From UHGV virus genome UHGV-0223590: a stretch of 10,609 bases of DNA; one strand, written 5' to 3'. This document shows, piece after piece, positions 1,219 through 7,256 of this stretch. Under the pieces are notes generated by a model. That model saw only the letters and a program-made list of their open reading frames with translations, was not told where the DNA came from and made no database searches. A program made the position numbers and the translations under genes. Source of the DNA: a virus. The stretch's first letter is position 1. Each line of letters opens with the position of its first letter.

Positions 1219-1294
1219 GGCCCTTTAGCTCAGTGGTGAGAGCGAGCGACTCATAATCGCCAGGTCGCTGGTTCAAATCCAGCAAGGGCCACCA
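1219..1294 (+). tRNA. ileZ: tRNA-Ile2 (anticodon CAU, ileX/ileZ-like; formally Met by anticodon alone)
   Basis: 76 nt, GGCCCTTTAGCTCAGTGGTGAGAGCGAGCGACTCATAATCGCCAGGTCGCTGGTTCAAATCCAGCAAGGGCCACCA. Cloverleaf folds by hand: 7-bp acceptor stem GGCCCTT/AAGGGCC, anticodon loop ctCATaa, T-loop TTCAAAT, encoded CCA. Closely resembles E. coli ileX as I recall it. Gene symbol is by analogy to the ileZ-argN-argO array of Stx phages. Confidence 0.85.
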
Positions 1295-1303
1295 TATCAC
1301 ATA

Positions 1304-1380
1304 CCACCATTAGCTCATCGGGATAGAGCGCCAGCCTTCGAAGCTGGTTGCGCGGGGTTCGAGTTCTCGATGGCGGTCCA
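1304..1380 (+). tRNA. tRNA-Arg (anticodon UCG)
   Basis: 77 nt. D-stem GCTC/GAGC, perfect anticodon stem CCAGC/GCTGG, anticodon loop ctTCGaa, T-loop TTCGAGT, encoded CCA. The acceptor stem has one A-C mismatch and the T-stem has G-U pairs; the 5' boundary is +/- 2 nt. Confidence 0.7.
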
Positions 1381-2301: not shown

Positions 2302-2907
2302 GATTTTGTCAGATGTGAGTAAACTCCTTATGGACTTTGTTGTTTTAGCCCATAAGGACATATTTGCAGAGTGCAACGGTTATTAAAGCATTCATTCAAT
2401 ACGTTATCTGTATTTGTAGGGCATTCCTGGCTGTTTTTGATTAAATTCCAGAATGTTTTATTGAATGGTACTACGTTGTAAATGGTTACAGGTAGCACTT
2501 TGTTATTGAGCATGATGCCTGTGTGAGTCAGTGTAAATATACTTTCAGGAGGTAAGAAAGCATCCGATTGATACCAGATTATTAATTTTATTTTACTCCA
2601 TATGACTGAAAAAGATATTCCGCATGATGGCTGGATAACTGTATCAATCACAATCCACTTCATTTAGTTTCCTTGTTTATGCCTTGCTGGTGATGTTCTG
2701 AAAAGTATAAATGATATTTTTGAATTAAACCATAGAGCAGAATTATTTTTCTGATGTTGTTTATTGTTTATTTAAATGCAGGGTGGTTTATATCTCGTCT
2801 TGTAGTTTATCCATGCATATCTGCTTGATGATGAGGTTTTTATTTAAGGTATGGTTTTGTGTTTTTTCTGTATTACATGTCAGGTATTTTAAAGAATCAT
2901 TTTTCAG

Positions 2908-4401
2908 ATGGTGGAAAGAACCATGGCATTTAAACACTATGATGTTGTCAGGGCGGCGTCGCCGTCAGATCTTGCGGAAAAGCTGACACATAAACTGAAA
3001 GAGGGCTGGCAGCCGTTTGGTAGTCCGGTGGCCATAACCCCTTATACCCTGATGCAGGCGATTGCAGCAGAAGGTGATGTGGTCGTCAGTGGTGCAACTG
3101 AGCCGGAGTGGTACTACGTCATCGTACTGGCCGGGCAATCCAATGCCATGGCTTACGGTGAAGGGCTTCCGCTTCCGGATTCATACGATGCGCCCCATCC
3201 GCGCATTAAGCAACTGGCCCGTCGTAACACAGTGACTCCCGGTGGTGAAGTATGCGTATTTAACGACATCATTCCTGCTGACCATTGTCTGCATGATGTT
3301 CAGGATATGAGTACGATTAATCATCCCCGGGCTGACCTGAGCAAAGGGCAGTACGGCTGTGTCGGACAGGGCTTACATATTGCCAAAAAACTGCTTCCGT
3401 ATATCCCTAATAACGCGGGGATCCTGCTGGTACCATGCTGTCGTGGTGGTTCGGCATTCACCCAGGGCACGGAGGGGACATTCAGCGAGTCCACGGGGGC
3501 CAGTCAGGATTCGGCTCGCTGGGGAGTGGGTAAGCCGTTATATCAGGATCTGCTTTTCCGCACGAAGGCAGCATTGCAGAAAAACCCGAAAAACGTTTTG
3601 CTGGCGATATGCTGGATGCAGGGGGAATTCGATATGACGAATGCCAGTTACGCCCAGCAGCCAGCAGCATTTCTTGCAATGGTACAGCAGTTCCGTGCTG
3701 ACCTTGCCGGGCTGGCGGCGCAGTGTCACGGTGGAAGTCCGGCATCAGTCCCCTGGATTTGTGGCGACACGACATACGCGTGGAAACAAGAACACGGTAC
3801 GCAATATGAAGTGGTATATGGTGCATATAAAGGTAAAGAATCCCAGCAGATTTATTTTGTTCCCTTTATGACCGATGGTAGCGGAGTTAATACACCGACA
3901 AACAACCCGTCAGAAGATCCTGATATTGCCGGGTCTGGTTATTACGGTTCGGCATCCCGAACGAACAAAAACTGGGTATCATCAAATCGCCCGACGCATT
4001 TCAGCTCATGGGCGCGTCGTGGCATTATTCCCGATCGTATGGCAACTGCTATTCTGAACGTAGCCGGTCGCACCTTAGCCTTCATTAGTGGTAAGGCACC
4101 GGAAATCAAACCCTCGCCCGGCGGCGACACGCCATCGGGGCCGTCTGAAGATGCATCCGTACGCACAATCTCCCTGTTGCCGACAGCCGGAGATGCTGCT
4201 GCGCAGGGCTGGAGCATTAAGAATGGCGGAATTCAGTTGTCAGATGGTGTATTTAAGATCACCAAGCAGAGCAATAAAACCTGGTCCCTGATGCATCCGG
4301 TGGATGACGCAGTCTCCCTGCTGACACGGGGTGGCAGACTGAGCTGTAAGTTTCGACTGTCAGGCGCACTGACCAACAACCAGTTCGGTCTGGGAATTTA
4401 G
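2908..4401 (+). CDS. nanS-p: Prophage-encoded NanS-p-like sialate O-acetylesterase (DUF1737-like N-terminal domain + SGNH/DUF303 esterase)
   Basis: 497-aa ORF. The N-terminus (MAFKHYDVVRAASPSDLAEKLTHKLKEGWQPFGSP...) matches the small DUF1737-type domain typical of these phage proteins. An SGNH block-I-like GQSNAMAYGEG follows. Sitting downstream of the late-region tRNA array is the canonical nanS-p position in Stx/lambdoid prophages. An alternative start at ATG 2923 (MAFKHYDV) is plausible. Confidence 0.8.
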   Translation: MVERTMAFKHYDVVRAASPSDLAEKLTHKLKEGWQPFGSPVAITPYTLMQAIAAEGDVVVSGATEPEWYYVIVLAGQSNAMAYGEGLPLPDSYDAPHPRIKQLARRNTVTPGGEVCVFNDIIPADHCLHDVQDMSTINHPRADLSKGQYGCVGQGLHIAKKLLPYIPNNAGILLVPCCRGGSAFTQGTEGTFSESTGASQDSARWGVGKPLYQDLLFRTKAALQKNPKNVLLAICWMQGEFDMTNASYAQQPAAFLAMVQQFRADLAGLAAQCHGGSPASVPWICGDTTYAWKQEHGTQYEVVYGAYKGKESQQIYFVPFMTDGSGVNTPTNNPSEDPDIAGSGYYGSASRTNKNWVSSNRPTHFSSWARRGIIPDRMATAILNVAGRTLAFISGKAPEIKPSPGGDTPSGPSEDASVRTISLLPTAGDAAAQGWSIKNGGIQLSDGVFKITKQSNKTWSLMHPVDDAVSLLTRGGRLSCKFRLSGALTNNQFGLGI

Positions 4402-4610
4402 TGCTGGCGAGCCTTGACGGGCTGATCTCCTATGCAGCAAAGGTTCATCTCAAAGTAAGACGAACGCTATGACAAACCAAGATTCTATAGACCTATCTGA
4501 TCTTCGTGGAATGGTCAGTTTTCCAGACAAAAGGTAATCACCATAGTCGTATGGCTATGAATCTTGTTGCTGCAGATAAGCATTTTGTGATTGAAGTGGT
4601 CAAATCTCTC

Positions 4611-4639
4611 AAATGCAGTAAAATGCAGTGCGCTATAAT
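4611..4639 (+). promoter_or_regulatory. Putative sigma70 promoter for the 206-aa gene (perfect -10 TATAAT at 4634-4639, weak -35), overlapped by a tandem 9-bp direct repeat
   Basis: TATAAT lies 28 nt upstream of ATG 4668, with SD AAGGAG at 4655-4660. AAATGCAGT occurs at 4611-4619 and again at 4621-4629. Confidence 0.4.
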
Positions 4640-4667
4640 TCAATAACGGAGGGAGTAAGGAGAAGTC

Positions 4668-5288
4668 ATGAAAGATCAAGATGTTAGGTTCGCGGTGCAT
4701 CATAAGCTTTTGAAAGAATCGCATTTAGATCCAGACTGCCTTGTGGTCGATGAATTTTCCATATCCCTTGGCGCCAGTAGAGCAGACATTGCTGTAATAA
4801 ATGGTGTTATACACGGGTACGAGCTCAAAAGTGAATATGACTCTTTGGAGCGTTTGCCTCTTCAAATCAAGCATTATTCTTCTGTAATGGACAAGGTTAC
4901 TCTTGTCGTAGCTGAGAAACACCTTGAGGGAGCATTAAAGTTAATTCCAGGTTGGTGGGGCGTTAAAACGGTTTCTGTTGGGCCAAAAGGCGCCATTCTT
5001 ATAAAGCACATGCGTGGAGAAAAGCTTAATCGAAACCATGACACATTGATGCTCGCTCAATTGCTTTGGAAAGATGAATGTATCGACGTACTTGAACGAT
5101 GGGGCTATTCCAAAGGAATCAAAAGCAAGCCCCGATTTGAGTTATGGAATATTATTGCGGAAAATATTCCAATAGCGAATCTCAGGCTTGAAGTCAGAAC
5201 AGCCTTAAAGAAACGCGTAGGCTGGAAAGTTAAGGCTTGGCAGGCTGAGTCTGCGCCAACCAATAAAGCTGTCTCACGACTAACGTAA
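4668..5288 (+). CDS. Hypothetical protein, 206 aa, with PD-(D/E)xK-like motif arrangement (putative nuclease)
   Basis: ORF with strong SD (AAGGAG, 7-nt spacer) and an upstream TATAAT. Carries ...VVDEFSI...SRADIAVING..HGYELKSEYD..., i.e. E29, D39, E52-x-K54 spaced like a restriction-endonuclease-fold core. Lies in AT-rich DNA unlike the flanking phage genes. Confidence 0.65.
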   Translation: MKDQDVRFAVHHKLLKESHLDPDCLVVDEFSISLGASRADIAVINGVIHGYELKSEYDSLERLPLQIKHYSSVMDKVTLVVAEKHLEGALKLIPGWWGVKTVSVGPKGAILIKHMRGEKLNRNHDTLMLAQLLWKDECIDVLERWGYSKGIKSKPRFELWNIIAENIPIANLRLEVRTALKKRVGWKVKAWQAESAPTNKAVSRLT

Positions 5289-6297
5289 TATGGTGCGTAT
5301 GTGCAACTTTACGCCATTCTTTAGAGCCGCCAGATTTGTTAGCGCCTAATGATCTTTGGTAAATGTAATCATCCCCCCAACTAAATTTGGAGCCAAAGAC
5401 TTGATACTCTGGCGAACTAACAAGGGTAGTACATAAGTTTTTAGTTTGGCCCCATCCATTTCCTTTAACTGCGGTACCTTTTACAAAGATCCATGAGGTA
5501 TCGTTCGAATATCTCACTGAGACATACTGAGACATGAAGCGTGGGTCTACGCTCGTAATGGTAGAGCTAGCGGTGGGATAATCACTAAAACTTGGCGTTC
5601 TTCCATTGCTAAAATTCTGTACTACGTACATCCAAAGATCGTATTCATGGCGCGGAATATGATGAACTTGATGTTGCGGTATCCCTGCCTGTGATGCCGG
5701 GTATGCGGTTGAAGATAAAATCAAGTTTCTCCACGGAGCTTGGCCTGATAATGTGTTGACCATGCTTAATGCTTGTTGTTTTAAACTATCAGTTGCGTTT
5801 TGAATATCTCCAAAATCAATGATTACATCAATTAAACTAGGATGAATATTTAAGTGGTTAACCAGACTTGTGAATTGGTGCCATGTCTGGGGGGTGATAG
5901 ATATAGCGAGCCCATTGATTAAGTTGCGTTGAACAGCATGTATATAGTTTGTTGAATATGCGGGAGAAACAACAGGGATAATTTCCTTACCATTTACTCT
6001 AGCATCTTGGATACACATATCTAGAGGATGATGGCGGCTCGAACCATGTTTATCTAAATATTTAACATCCAGCAAAACAGGACGATTGGCTTTCCAGGAT
6101 GCCGCAAGGTTAATACCGAAGTCAGATAAGTAAGAACTCAAACTCTTCTTGTAGCATTCGTTTTCATAATCCCAGTCTATGTCTGGAATGGTAATGATCG
6201 GAGTAAAACCAGAGAGCGTAGTTTGATCTAAAAGCATCAGAGATTCATATTCAGCAGGCTTCCATTTCAGCTGTGGATAATATTGATGTTGACTCAT
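5230..6297 (-). CDS. Hypothetical protein, 355 aa, partner of the 206-aa gene (convergent, 59-bp 3' overlap)
   Basis: Long minus-strand ORF with a strong SD (AAGGAG, 6 nt before ATG, seen as CTCCTT at 6303-6308 on +). AT-rich like its partner. No catalytic motif I can assign by eye. Confidence 0.65.
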   Translation of the reverse strand: MSQHQYYPQLKWKPAEYESLMLLDQTTLSGFTPIITIPDIDWDYENECYKKSLSSYLSDFGINLAASWKANRPVLLDVKYLDKHGSSRHHPLDMCIQDARVNGKEIIPVVSPAYSTNYIHAVQRNLINGLAISITPQTWHQFTSLVNHLNIHPSLIDVIIDFGDIQNATDSLKQQALSMVNTLSGQAPWRNLILSSTAYPASQAGIPQHQVHHIPRHEYDLWMYVVQNFSNGRTPSFSDYPTASSTITSVDPRFMSQYVSVRYSNDTSWIFVKGTAVKGNGWGQTKNLCTTLVSSPEYQVFGSKFSWGDDYIYQRSLGANKSGGSKEWRKVAHTHHITLVVRQLYWLAQTQPAKP

Positions 6298-6327
6298 TAA
6301 AACTCCTTAAAATCTTTACTTATCCTA

Positions 6328-6356
6328 AGTATAGTGTTATGGCGTAACGCCAATTG
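6328..6356 (-). promoter_or_regulatory. Putative promoter/operator for the 355-aa gene (-10 TATACT; inverted repeat TGGCG-N3-CGCCA in spacer/-35 region)
   Basis: On the minus strand TATACT lies about 30 nt upstream of the start codon. The palindrome TGGCGTAACGCCA (6340-6352) sits immediately upstream of it. Confidence 0.3.
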
Positions 6357-6520
6357 TTTTTATACACTTGAAAACATTGGGAAAAGTTGAGCTATATCTA
6401 AATTTACAAAATTGGATGTTATAGAAATCGAGGTTTCAACTAGGCATGGAACTGCAAAATTTTTAATGCCTGCACGCGAAAGTCGTTGGCGGGTCCTTTC
6501 CGGTGATCCAGATCGTTACG

Positions 6521-6532
6521 GGGCGGCGACCT
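6521..6532 (+). other. cos: cosN (lambda-type cohesive end site, GGGCGGCGACCT)
   Basis: Exact match to the lambda 12-nt cohesive end. The preceding CTTTCCGGTGATCC...GTTACG resembles the lambda right end, and the following CTCGCGG(T)TTTTC(A)CTATTTATGAAAATTTT matches the lambda left end almost base for base. Distance to the Nu1 start (187 nt) is close to lambda's. Confidence 0.9.
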
Positions 6533-6707
6533 CGCGGTTTTTCACTATTTATGAAAATTTTTCAGGGAAAATCGTGTCGGTACTTCTCGAATATAACTTT
6601 TTGTTTTTTTTAATATTGCATTCATAAATGTCCGACATGAAAGTGTCCGAAAATGCCTTTTTTTGGCGTTTTCATGTCGGGCCTTGTATTTGATAATGAG
6701 TTGTTCT
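6533..6707 (+). promoter_or_regulatory. cosB-like region (terminase small-subunit binding sites) between cosN and Nu1
   Basis: Repeated motif related to CGACATGAAA in both orientations: TGTCCGACATGAAAG at 6629-6643, TGTCCGAAAATG at 6645-6656, and the inverted TTTTCATGTCGGG at 6669-6681. Position corresponds to the lambda R3-I1-R2-R1 region. Confidence 0.6.
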
Positions 6708-7256
6708 ATGAAGGTTAATAAAAAGAGGCTTGCCGAAATTTTCAACGTGGATCCGCGAACGATTGAACGCTGGCAGTCTCAGGGGCTCCCTTGCGTCTCC
6801 AAAGGCAGTAAGGGCATTGAATCTGTATTTGATACTGCCATGGCAATTCAGTGGTATGCGCAGAGGGAAACTGATATCGAAAACGAAAAGCTCCGCAAAG
6901 AACTGGCCGATTTGCGTGCGGCAGCGGAGTCAGATTTACAACCCGGCACCATTGACTATGAACGCTACCGGCTCACAAAAGCGCAGGCAGATGCGCAGGA
7001 ACTGAAAAATGCCCGTGAAGACGGAGTGGTGCTGGAAACTGAACTATTTACCTTCATTCTGCAACGTGTGGCACAGGAGATTTCGGGGATACTTGTGCGT
7101 GTGCCGTTGACATTACAGCGTAAATATCCGGACATTTCACCATCACACCTTGATGTGGTGAAAACTGAAATCGCGAAAGCCTCCAATGTTGCAGCTAAGG
7201 CCGGTGAAAACGTGGGCGGGTGGATCGATGATTTCAGACGCACAGAAGGCAGCTAA
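6708..7256 (+). CDS. nu1: Terminase small subunit (lambda gpNu1 homologue)
   Basis: [28 protein letters not shown]...[48 protein letters not shown]... is colinear with lambda Nu1 (MEVNKKQLADIFGASIRTIQNWQEQGMP...). Start moved to the internal ATG 6708 (MKVNKK) rather than the track's 6663, matching the lambda N-terminus and the distance from cosN. Confidence 0.9.

What the first reader, a model, noticed from the sequence alone, without database searches (positions are those of the whole stretch)
4668..5288. 206-aa protein has an E...D...E-x-K arrangement consistent with a PD-(D/E)xK nuclease core
In the N-terminal ~60 residues, VVDEF (E29), RADIAVING (D39) and GYELKSE (E52, K54) follow the spacing and hydrophobic context of restriction-endonuclease-fold active sites: an acidic residue at the start of one beta-strand and E-x-K in the next. 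The C-terminal ~100 residues are basic (KKRVGWKVKAW) and could bind nucleic acid. A nuclease effector would fit a defence or toxin role.
Basis: inference. Interest (0 to 1): 0.6.

Follow-up and report, generated by a model that had tools for sequence, protein, structure and literature searches.

The report
Prophage cII-like nuclease paired with beta
The 206-residue protein is very likely a real DNA-cutting enzyme of the restriction-endonuclease type, a relative of satellite phage P4's cII protein, and it always travels with a partner gene ("beta") found in two validated anti-phage systems, so the nuclease idea is right but the fold assignment is already on record and the biochemistry is untested.

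Summary

The protein belongs to NCBIfam sce7726 and is a homologue of P4 cII. Published HHpred data (Rousset 2022, Table S3) already link P4 cII to MmcB-like and other PD-(D/E)xK families.

Its convergent neighbour at 5230-6297 (-) is a Beta_protein with a TIM-barrel model. The pair is convergent in 82 of 84 loci. Stop codons overlap in 79 of 82, in a fixed frame phase. The pair is shared by P4 gop-beta-cII and PD-lambda-2-type loci. This window holds the bare two-gene form, a low-GC cassette next to cos in a lysis-deleted lambdoid prophage.

Verdict: interpretation supported. It is a new member of a known kind, with no biochemical test yet.

The parts
4668..5288 (+). CDS of the 206-aa sce7726-family / P4 cII-like PD-(D/E)xK protein. 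Nuclease core about residues 1-120, basic helical domain 121-187, non-conserved tail 188-206.
4752..4829 (+). Codons of the predicted active site: E29 (4752-4754), D40 (4785-4787), E52 (4821-4823), K54 (4827-4829), on strands beta1, beta2 and beta3.
   Evidence: Invariant or 99% conserved in 151 representatives and invariant in 84 loci. Strand assignment from DSSP of the model.
4863..4877 (+). Q66-x-x-x-Y70 motif in the helix following the E-x-K strand.
   Evidence: Q66 100% and Y70 95% conserved (F in the rest). Helix 63-73.
4634..4662 (+). Candidate -10 box TATAAT (4634-4639) and Shine-Dalgarno AAGGAG (4657-4662) for the nuclease gene.
   Evidence: Read directly from the sequence. Not tested experimentally. 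The consensus scan listed a different weak promoter at 4597-4624.
5230..6297 (-). CDS of the 355-aa Beta_protein (P4 beta / PD-lambda-2C relative) with a TIM-barrel model. It is the convergent partner of the nuclease gene. Its SD AAGGAG is at 6308-6303.
5230..5288 (.). 59-bp 3'-3' overlap of the two convergent coding regions. No intrinsic terminator was detected between or near the stop codons.
   Evidence: Coordinates. The overlap is conserved in 79 of 82 loci, with length = 2 mod 3 in 77 of 83 pairs, and is 50 bp in 72 of 75 beta-selected loci. Terminator scan.
6521..6532 (+). cosN cohesive-end sequence GGGCGGCGACCT. It marks the cassette as the last cargo before cos and Nu1.
   Evidence: Exact match with 0 expected by chance. 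Similarity to phage 21 cos records. Nu1 at 6663-7256.
4401..6520 (.). Extent of the low-GC accessory cassette (GC 0.37-0.44, flanks 0.50-0.57) holding only these two genes.
   Evidence: Composition profile. No other ORF of at least 50 aa with family support, and no minus-strand ORF at all between 6298 and 6544. Same cassette in 126 of 5426 complete E. coli genomes.

Best explanation
The 206-aa protein is a metal-dependent PD-(D/E)xK nuclease of the sce7726 / P4-cII family. E29, D40 and E52 on three adjacent strands would bind the metal, K54 would complete the site, and a Q-x-x-x-Y helix and a basic helical C-terminal domain would hold the nucleic acid.

It is one half of an ancient, obligatorily paired module. 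Its partner is the convergent TIM-barrel 'beta' protein. This pair is the shared core of two experimentally validated anti-phage systems: P4 gop-beta-cII, and loci of the PD-lambda-2 type.

In this window the pair occurs bare, as a low-GC cassette next to cos in a lysis-deleted lambdoid prophage. The most likely role is a prophage-carried defence or abortive-infection module. In that model the nuclease is the effector and beta is the sensor or controller. Because the two genes overlap at their 3' ends with no terminator, their convergent transcription probably antagonises each other and sets the balance between them.

Shown here: the fold, motif invariance, family membership, pairing, overlap and genomic context. 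Inferred: catalysis, substrate, the defence role of the two-gene form, the roles of beta, and antisense control.

For: Family: NF033832 at 184 bits, PADLOC cll. Published HHpred of P4 cII to MmcB-like gives 99.76% probability.

Pairing: 82 of 84 nuclease-selected loci have a convergent adjacent beta. 65 of 65 beta-selected loci have the nuclease. Mantel r is 0.85 against a permutation maximum of 0.12.

Defence link: gop-beta-cII protects against lambda and P1 (PMC9122126). PD-lambda-2C is required for defence (PMC9519451). PD-lambda-2 A and B sit upstream of beta in about 21 of 82 loci.

Context: low GC, next to cosN, between the lysis genes and terminase in intact relatives. Strong SD sequences precede both genes.

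No alternative effector: there is no gop, HigB-like or Xre-peptidase gene in the window.
Against: No member of the family has been shown to cleave nucleic acid, and no paper in the searchable library tests cII.

In P4 the known toxin is Gop and beta is its antidote, and cII has no assigned role in defence.

The PD-lambda-2 clone that protected against lambda-vir extended only about 396 bp past the 3' end of gene C. If ECOR42 carries the usual convergent nuclease gene, which I could not check, that clone lacked its first ~45-50 codons and its promoter. The nuclease would then be dispensable there.

Beta has many conserved polar residues and could itself be the active enzyme.

Stand-alone family members occur in lytic phages, with an exonuclease gene about 1.5 kb away in phage Grass. 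This shows the fold also serves non-defence roles.

The two-gene form has never been tested for defence.
Confidence: 0.6

Rival explanations
1. Addiction (toxin-antitoxin) module without an anti-phage role. The nuclease is a toxin and beta its antidote, or the reverse. The pair merely stabilises the prophage, plasmid or island that carries it.
For: Beta neutralises a toxin in P4. The pair sits on plasmids, phage-plasmids and islands beside hok, VapBC and HicAB modules. The tight convergent coupling fits reciprocal control. The cassette is retained in a prophage that has lost its lysis genes.
Against: Both characterised systems containing beta do protect against phage. Addiction and abortive infection are not mutually exclusive. 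No toxicity data exist for either protein of the two-gene form.
Confidence: 0.15
2. A phage DNA-metabolism or repair enzyme (MmcB-like, or a structure-specific nuclease) that serves the prophage's own replication, recombination or packaging near cos, rather than conflict with other phages.
For: The closest structural and profile relatives are MmcB-like (3dnx) and NucS. One source names a homologue 'DNA repair protein MmcB-like'. Stand-alone homologues occur in lytic Herelleviridae, with an exonuclease gene about 1.5 kb away in phage Grass, and in about 241 Staphylococcus phage records. The gene is adjacent to cos.
Against: The cassette has foreign GC content. It is absent from phage 21 and other relatives that share the same cos and terminase, and present in only 126 of roughly 1200 E. 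coli genomes that match part of the query. So it is accessory, not core. It also occurs in chromosomes and plasmids of many phyla outside phage contexts. The obligate pairing with beta and the link to validated defence systems are not explained by this reading.
Confidence: 0.13
3. A nuclease-fold DNA-binding regulator with no catalysis, for example a repressor of beta or of lysogeny functions, as the historical name 'cII' might suggest.
Against: Inactivated PD-(D/E)xK domains normally lose the acidic/lysine motif. Here E29, D40, E52 and K54 are invariant or nearly so in sequences down to 27-33% identity, which argues for retained chemistry.
Confidence: 0.08
4. The motif is a chance match in a spurious ORF.
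For: The loose motif occurs in 13.6% of shuffles.
Against: 5669 homologous clusters, a strong SD, a high-confidence fold and residue invariance.
Confidence: 0.01

Closest known systems
P4 cII protein of the gop-beta-cII anti-phage system (satellite phage P4, NC_001609; Rousset et al. 2022)
   Same: Homologous over the full length (27% identity, BLASTP 2e-18; PADLOC 'cll' 4e-31). RefSeq calls both 'sce7726 family protein'. Same E...D...E-x-K...Q motif. Same convergent arrangement with a beta gene. Both cassettes lie next to a cos site.
   Different: P4 cII is 264 aa with a C-terminal extension. In P4 the two genes are separated by 27 bp and a terminator rather than overlapping. P4 has the two-TM toxin Gop upstream of beta, and the window has none. 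The host element is a lambdoid prophage, not a P4 satellite.
PD-lambda-2 (Vassallo et al. 2022): HigB-like A, Xre-peptidase B, beta-like C
   Same: The window's beta matches PD-Lambda-2_C models better than the P4 beta model (4e-32 against 3.5e-10). In PD-lambda-2-type loci a cII-like nuclease gene is convergent with C in 65 of 65 cases with enough sequence (example L071; S. meliloti plasmid).
   Different: The window lacks A and B. PD-lambda-2 was defined as three genes without the nuclease, and the clone tested probably could not contain an intact one (conditional inference).
MmcB-like family (Pfam PF06319; structure 3dnx, SPO1766)
   Different: No hmmscan match of the query or of 50 homologues to the local Pfam, even at E up to 10. 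The source collection assigns a separate Pfam entry, PF26915. The extra C-terminal helical domain and the obligate beta partner are not features I know for MmcB. That 3dnx belongs to PF06319 is from my memory and was not tested.
Effector nuclease domains of Can2/Card1 and Cap4 (type III CRISPR and CBASS)
   Different: No CARF or SAVED sensor domain is fused here. The putative controller is a separate TIM-barrel protein. There is no evidence for a nucleotide signal.

Membership tests
PD-(D/E)xK (restriction-endonuclease-like) superfamily | alpha-beta-beta-beta-alpha-beta core fold | tested here: met
PD-(D/E)xK (restriction-endonuclease-like) superfamily | Acidic residue on beta2 and (D/E)-x-K on beta3, plus a further acidic ligand, conserved across homologues | tested here: met
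   D40 lies in E37-44, E52-x-K54 in E48-54 and E29 in E25-32. Conservation is 99-100%. Convergence of the side chains is inferred from hairpin registers, not measured on coordinates.
PD-(D/E)xK (restriction-endonuclease-like) superfamily | Metal-dependent phosphodiester cleavage | not testable with these tools
   Needs a biochemical assay. No published assay for this family was found.
sce7726 family (NCBIfam NF033832; Pfam PF26915 as precomputed) | Full-length HMM match above the curated cutoff | tested here: met
   184.1 bits against a cutoff of 70, covering residues 1-183 of 184 profile positions. All homologues carry PF26915. RefSeq annotates the identical locus as sce7726 family.
P4 gop-beta-cII defence system | cII homologue | tested here: met
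   PADLOC cll 4.3e-31. BLASTP to P4 cII 2e-18 over 205 residues.
P4 gop-beta-cII defence system | Beta homologue adjacent and convergent | tested here: met
   PF14350 8e-56 and PADLOC beta 3.5e-10. Geometry as in P4.
P4 gop-beta-cII defence system | gop (two-TM toxin) upstream of beta | tested here: not met
   There is no minus-strand ORF of at least 20 aa between 6298 and 6544. phmmer with P4 Gop finds nothing in the window or in the other 82 loci searched (80 genome loci, Rac-SA53 and Powerball) at E up to 10.
P4 gop-beta-cII defence system | Protection against phage | not testable with these tools
   Shown for the P4 three-gene locus only (PMC9122126).
PD-lambda-2 | C component (beta-like) | tested here: met
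   PDLC03984 4.4e-32 and PDLC03983 2.2e-25.
PD-lambda-2 | A (HigB-like) and B (Xre-HTH + ImmA/IrrE peptidase) upstream of C | tested here: not met
   Neither ORF is present. The window is not in the A or B clusters found in about 21 other loci.
MmcB-like (PF06319) | Pfam HMM match | tested here: not met
   No hmmscan hit for the query or for 50 homologues at E up to 10. It is related at the profile-profile level only (published HHpred for P4 cII) and by fold.
RecB/Cas4/lambda-exonuclease branch | Q-x-x-x-Y motif after the E-x-K strand (definition from my own knowledge) | tested here: met

The most novel reading that the evidence does not exclude
The convergent, 3'-overlapping beta/cII pair is itself an autonomous and ancient two-gene immune module, found in many bacterial phyla and their phages. 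Its PD-(D/E)xK nuclease is the effector, and it is kept in check by the TIM-barrel beta protein and by head-on antisense transcription. The validated systems gop-beta-cII and PD-lambda-2 would then be this core decorated with extra toxins, and PD-lambda-2 would really be a four-gene system whose nuclease gene was overlooked.
Probability: 0.3. Interest if true: 0.6.

Novelty: new member of a known kind. Interest (0 to 1): 0.38.

Why it matters
The cII component of gop-beta-cII has no assigned function in the main text of the papers that validated the system. Here the nuclease signature is shown to be invariant or nearly so across thousands of homologous clusters, and the nuclease gene is shown to be locked to beta in a fixed-phase convergent overlap.

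This gives a concrete, testable effector for a widespread but uncharacterised module (5669 clusters at 50% identity). It suggests that two separately named defence systems share one core, and it points to an unusual regulatory layout: obligate head-on transcription.

For E. coli, it identifies cargo carried by about 2% of complete genomes at the accessory-gene position next to cos in lambdoid prophages.

Tried and rejected
- Pfam hmmscan of the query and of 50 homologues, even at E up to 10, found no PD-(D/E)xK family. The local Pfam copy gave no PF26915 match.
- A profile search of PDB sequences gave only noise, such as TAF1 bromodomains.
- Foldseek against the PDB was nearly empty, with one SfsA hit. 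The afdb50 library was unavailable.
- Ten long family members were scanned for fused domains and none was found.
- NCBIfam has no model matching any beta protein, so I could not test whether 'sce7725' is beta and dropped that idea.
- I tried to reach the ECOR42 PD-lambda-2 locus by searching homologues of the B protein. The search returned only metagenomic relatives. Plasmid HigB + ImmA/IrrE pairs turned out to be stand-alone modules without beta.
- A beta-seeded scan of viral contigs returned almost only near-identical copies of this cassette.
- Two broad beta alignments were too diverse for pattern extraction before a narrower one worked.
- Ghisotti et al. 1990 is not held. My recollection that mutating the cII terminator gives a temperature-sensitive phenotype through reduced beta expression is memory only.
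- I considered and rejected a chance motif or a spurious ORF.

Full report
OBSERVATION. The ORF at 4668-5288 on the plus strand starts with ATG and encodes 206 residues. The numbering is right for E29, E52 and K54 but the aspartate is D40, not D39. AAGGAG lies 5 nt upstream of the ATG, and a perfect TATAAT lies at 4634-4639. The loose motif alone is weak evidence: E-x(8-14)-D-x(9-14)-E-x-K appears in 13.6% of shuffles of this same protein and in 3 of the 16 window ORFs of at least 100 aa.

CONSERVATION. A word-indexed search found 315 homologues, all carrying the precomputed Pfam domain PF26915. Many are named 'sce7726 family protein' and one is named 'DNA repair protein MmcB-like'. An exhaustive profile search found 5669 clusters (at 50% identity) with E up to 0.001. 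Among the best 150 representatives plus the query (151 sequences; the representatives are 33-47% identical to the query), E29, E52 and K54 are invariant and D40 is 150/151, with one conservative D-to-E. D58, R62, Q66, E137 and R183 are also invariant, and Y70 is 95% conserved. That yields a Q-x-x-x-Y motif in the helix after the E-x-K strand, a feature I know from RecB/Cas4/lambda-exonuclease-type enzymes (own knowledge). In 84 genomic loci, including P4 cII, E29, D40, E52, K54, Q66 and R183 are all invariant. Pairwise alignments show the motif in P4 cII (27% identity) and in a stand-alone member from Bacillus phage Grass (25% identity).

WHAT IS ALREADY KNOWN. NCBIfam NF033832 (sce7726_fam) matches at 184 bits against a cutoff of 70. 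PADLOC's 'cll' model, built on P4 cII, matches at 4e-31. P4 carries gop (+), beta (+) and a convergent cII (-), which RefSeq now annotates as an sce7726 family protein. Rousset et al. showed that gop-beta-cII protects against lambda and P1. Their Table S3 lists HHpred hits of P4 cII to MmcB-like (99.76%, E 2e-17), AHJR-like, NucS, DpnII-MboI, PDDEXK_9/3 and RecU, and lists Gop with two TM segments. So the restriction-endonuclease fold of this family is on record, though only in a supplement. I found no paper that tests cII biochemically or genetically.

In 84 loci selected through the nuclease (80 genomes from many phyla, P4, Rac-SA53, Gordonia phage Powerball and the window), 82 have a convergent adjacent beta gene. 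In 79 of those 82 the stop codons overlap, with a median of 50 bp. The overlap length is 2 mod 3 in 77 of 83 pairs. In most loci beta's stop codon lies 2 or 8 nt before the invariant R183 codon, so conserved parts of both proteins are encoded on opposite strands in a fixed phase. The divergence matrices of the two proteins correlate with Mantel r 0.85, against a permutation maximum of 0.12.

In the reverse direction, I selected 80 metagenomic loci through a PD-lambda-2C-type beta. All 65 with enough downstream sequence carry the convergent nuclease gene, 57 of 59 carry PD-lambda-2B, 58 of 58 carry PD-lambda-2A, and the overlap is exactly 50 bp in 72 of 75. RefSeq-annotated plasmids show the same picture, for example S. 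meliloti pEm1132a. Gop has no homologue outside P4 in this sample. HigB + ImmA/IrrE pairs also exist alone. The beta/cII pair is therefore the constant core, and the toxin modules are optional additions.

THIS LOCUS. The window contains the bare pair. No minus-strand ORF of at least 20 aa lies between beta's start and 6544, and there is no A- or B-type gene. The cassette has GC 0.37-0.44 against 0.50-0.57 in the flanks. It ends about 220 bp from cosN (GGGCGGCGACCT, 6521-6532), just before Nu1 and terminase. In E. coli DA33133 the identical cassette lies between the lysis genes and the small terminase subunit. It is present in 126 of 5426 complete E. coli genomes, while about 1200 genomes match some part of the query (in the phage records, the cos-proximal end). 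No intrinsic terminator was detected near either stop codon, and both genes have strong SD sequences.

MECHANISM. I commit to the following model. The protein is an active metal-dependent nuclease that acts as the effector of a prophage-borne defence or abortive-infection module. The beta protein senses or controls it, and head-on transcription across the 59-bp overlap couples their expression. The fold, motif, pairing and context are shown. The rest is inferred.

The main caveat concerns the PD-lambda-2 clone that protected against lambda-vir. It extended only about 396 bp beyond gene C. If ECOR42 follows the 65-of-65 rule, that clone lacked the 5' third of the nuclease gene. The nuclease would then be dispensable when a HigB-like toxin is present. 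In the two-gene form no other effector candidate exists apart from beta itself.

The rivals are a pure addiction module, a phage DNA-metabolism enzyme and a non-catalytic regulator. Each is weighed in its own entry.

VERDICT. This is a new member of a known, named family whose nuclease fold was already predicted. The added value lies in the systems-level picture: an invariant active site, an obligate fixed-phase convergent overlap with beta, and a core shared between gop-beta-cII and PD-lambda-2.

Noticed in passing
window ~4398-4400 (junction); compare L087 6721-8996: Relative to the otherwise 99% identical prophage of E. coli DA33133, the window lacks 2277 bp carrying the 3' end of the SASA esterase gene and the holin, YdfR, lysozyme and Rz-like lysis genes. 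The esterase ORF here is 497 aa instead of 618. This prophage copy should be unable to lyse its host, yet it keeps the nuclease/beta cassette intact.
   Followed up: yes
window 5230-5288; loci L002-L083 and L132-L211: The convergent 3' overlap of the two genes has a fixed reading-frame phase (length = 2 mod 3 in 77 of 83 and 74 of 75 pairs). It is exactly 50 bp in many unrelated phyla. Conserved C-terminal segments of both proteins are encoded on opposite strands of the same DNA.
   Followed up: yes
L071 5947-9133; L132-L211; L213 1279-4639: Loci of the PD-lambda-2 type (HigB-like A, Xre-peptidase B, beta-like C) carry a fourth, convergent cII-like nuclease gene in 65 of 65 beta-selected cases. 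The published system is described as three genes, and the clone tested probably could not include an intact copy (only 396 bp of flank).
   Followed up: partly
L088 and L090 (Acinetobacter plasmids pAC1633-1 and pNDM-AP_882), locus 4710-5980: The IS30-family element carrying blaNDM-1 is inserted into the beta gene of a HigB-like/ImmA-IrrE/beta/sce7726 locus. A 66-aa beta stub is left on one side, and the remaining beta C-terminal part with sce7726 lies about 10 kb away.
   Followed up: partly
L089 2465-3184 (Bacillus phage Grass); one search list: Stand-alone sce7726-family genes without beta occur in lytic Herelleviridae. Weaker matches (E about 1e-4) occur in about 241 Staphylococcus phage records. 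The Grass protein keeps the E...D...E-x-K...Q-x-x-x-Y motif, and an exonuclease gene lies about 1.5 kb upstream of it.
   Followed up: partly
window 2328-2663 (-): An IraM anti-adapter homologue (NF007393, 4.7e-48) sits in a very AT-rich island (GC 0.33) between the tRNA genes and the esterase gene.
   Followed up: no
window 1219-1294 and 1304-1380 (+): Two phage-borne tRNA genes: CAT anticodon (called Met by ARAGORN, annotated Ile in RefSeq) and Arg-TCG. They lie downstream of an orphan N6/N4 DNA methyltransferase gene (120-1169).
   Followed up: no
L002 (Rac-SA53) 5001-6636; L212 (pSTEC1024_3) 3489-5124: A second, diverged E. coli version of the bare pair (54% and 30% identity) sits at a different prophage position, next to hok/mok in the early region. 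So the module has entered lambdoid elements more than once.
   Followed up: no
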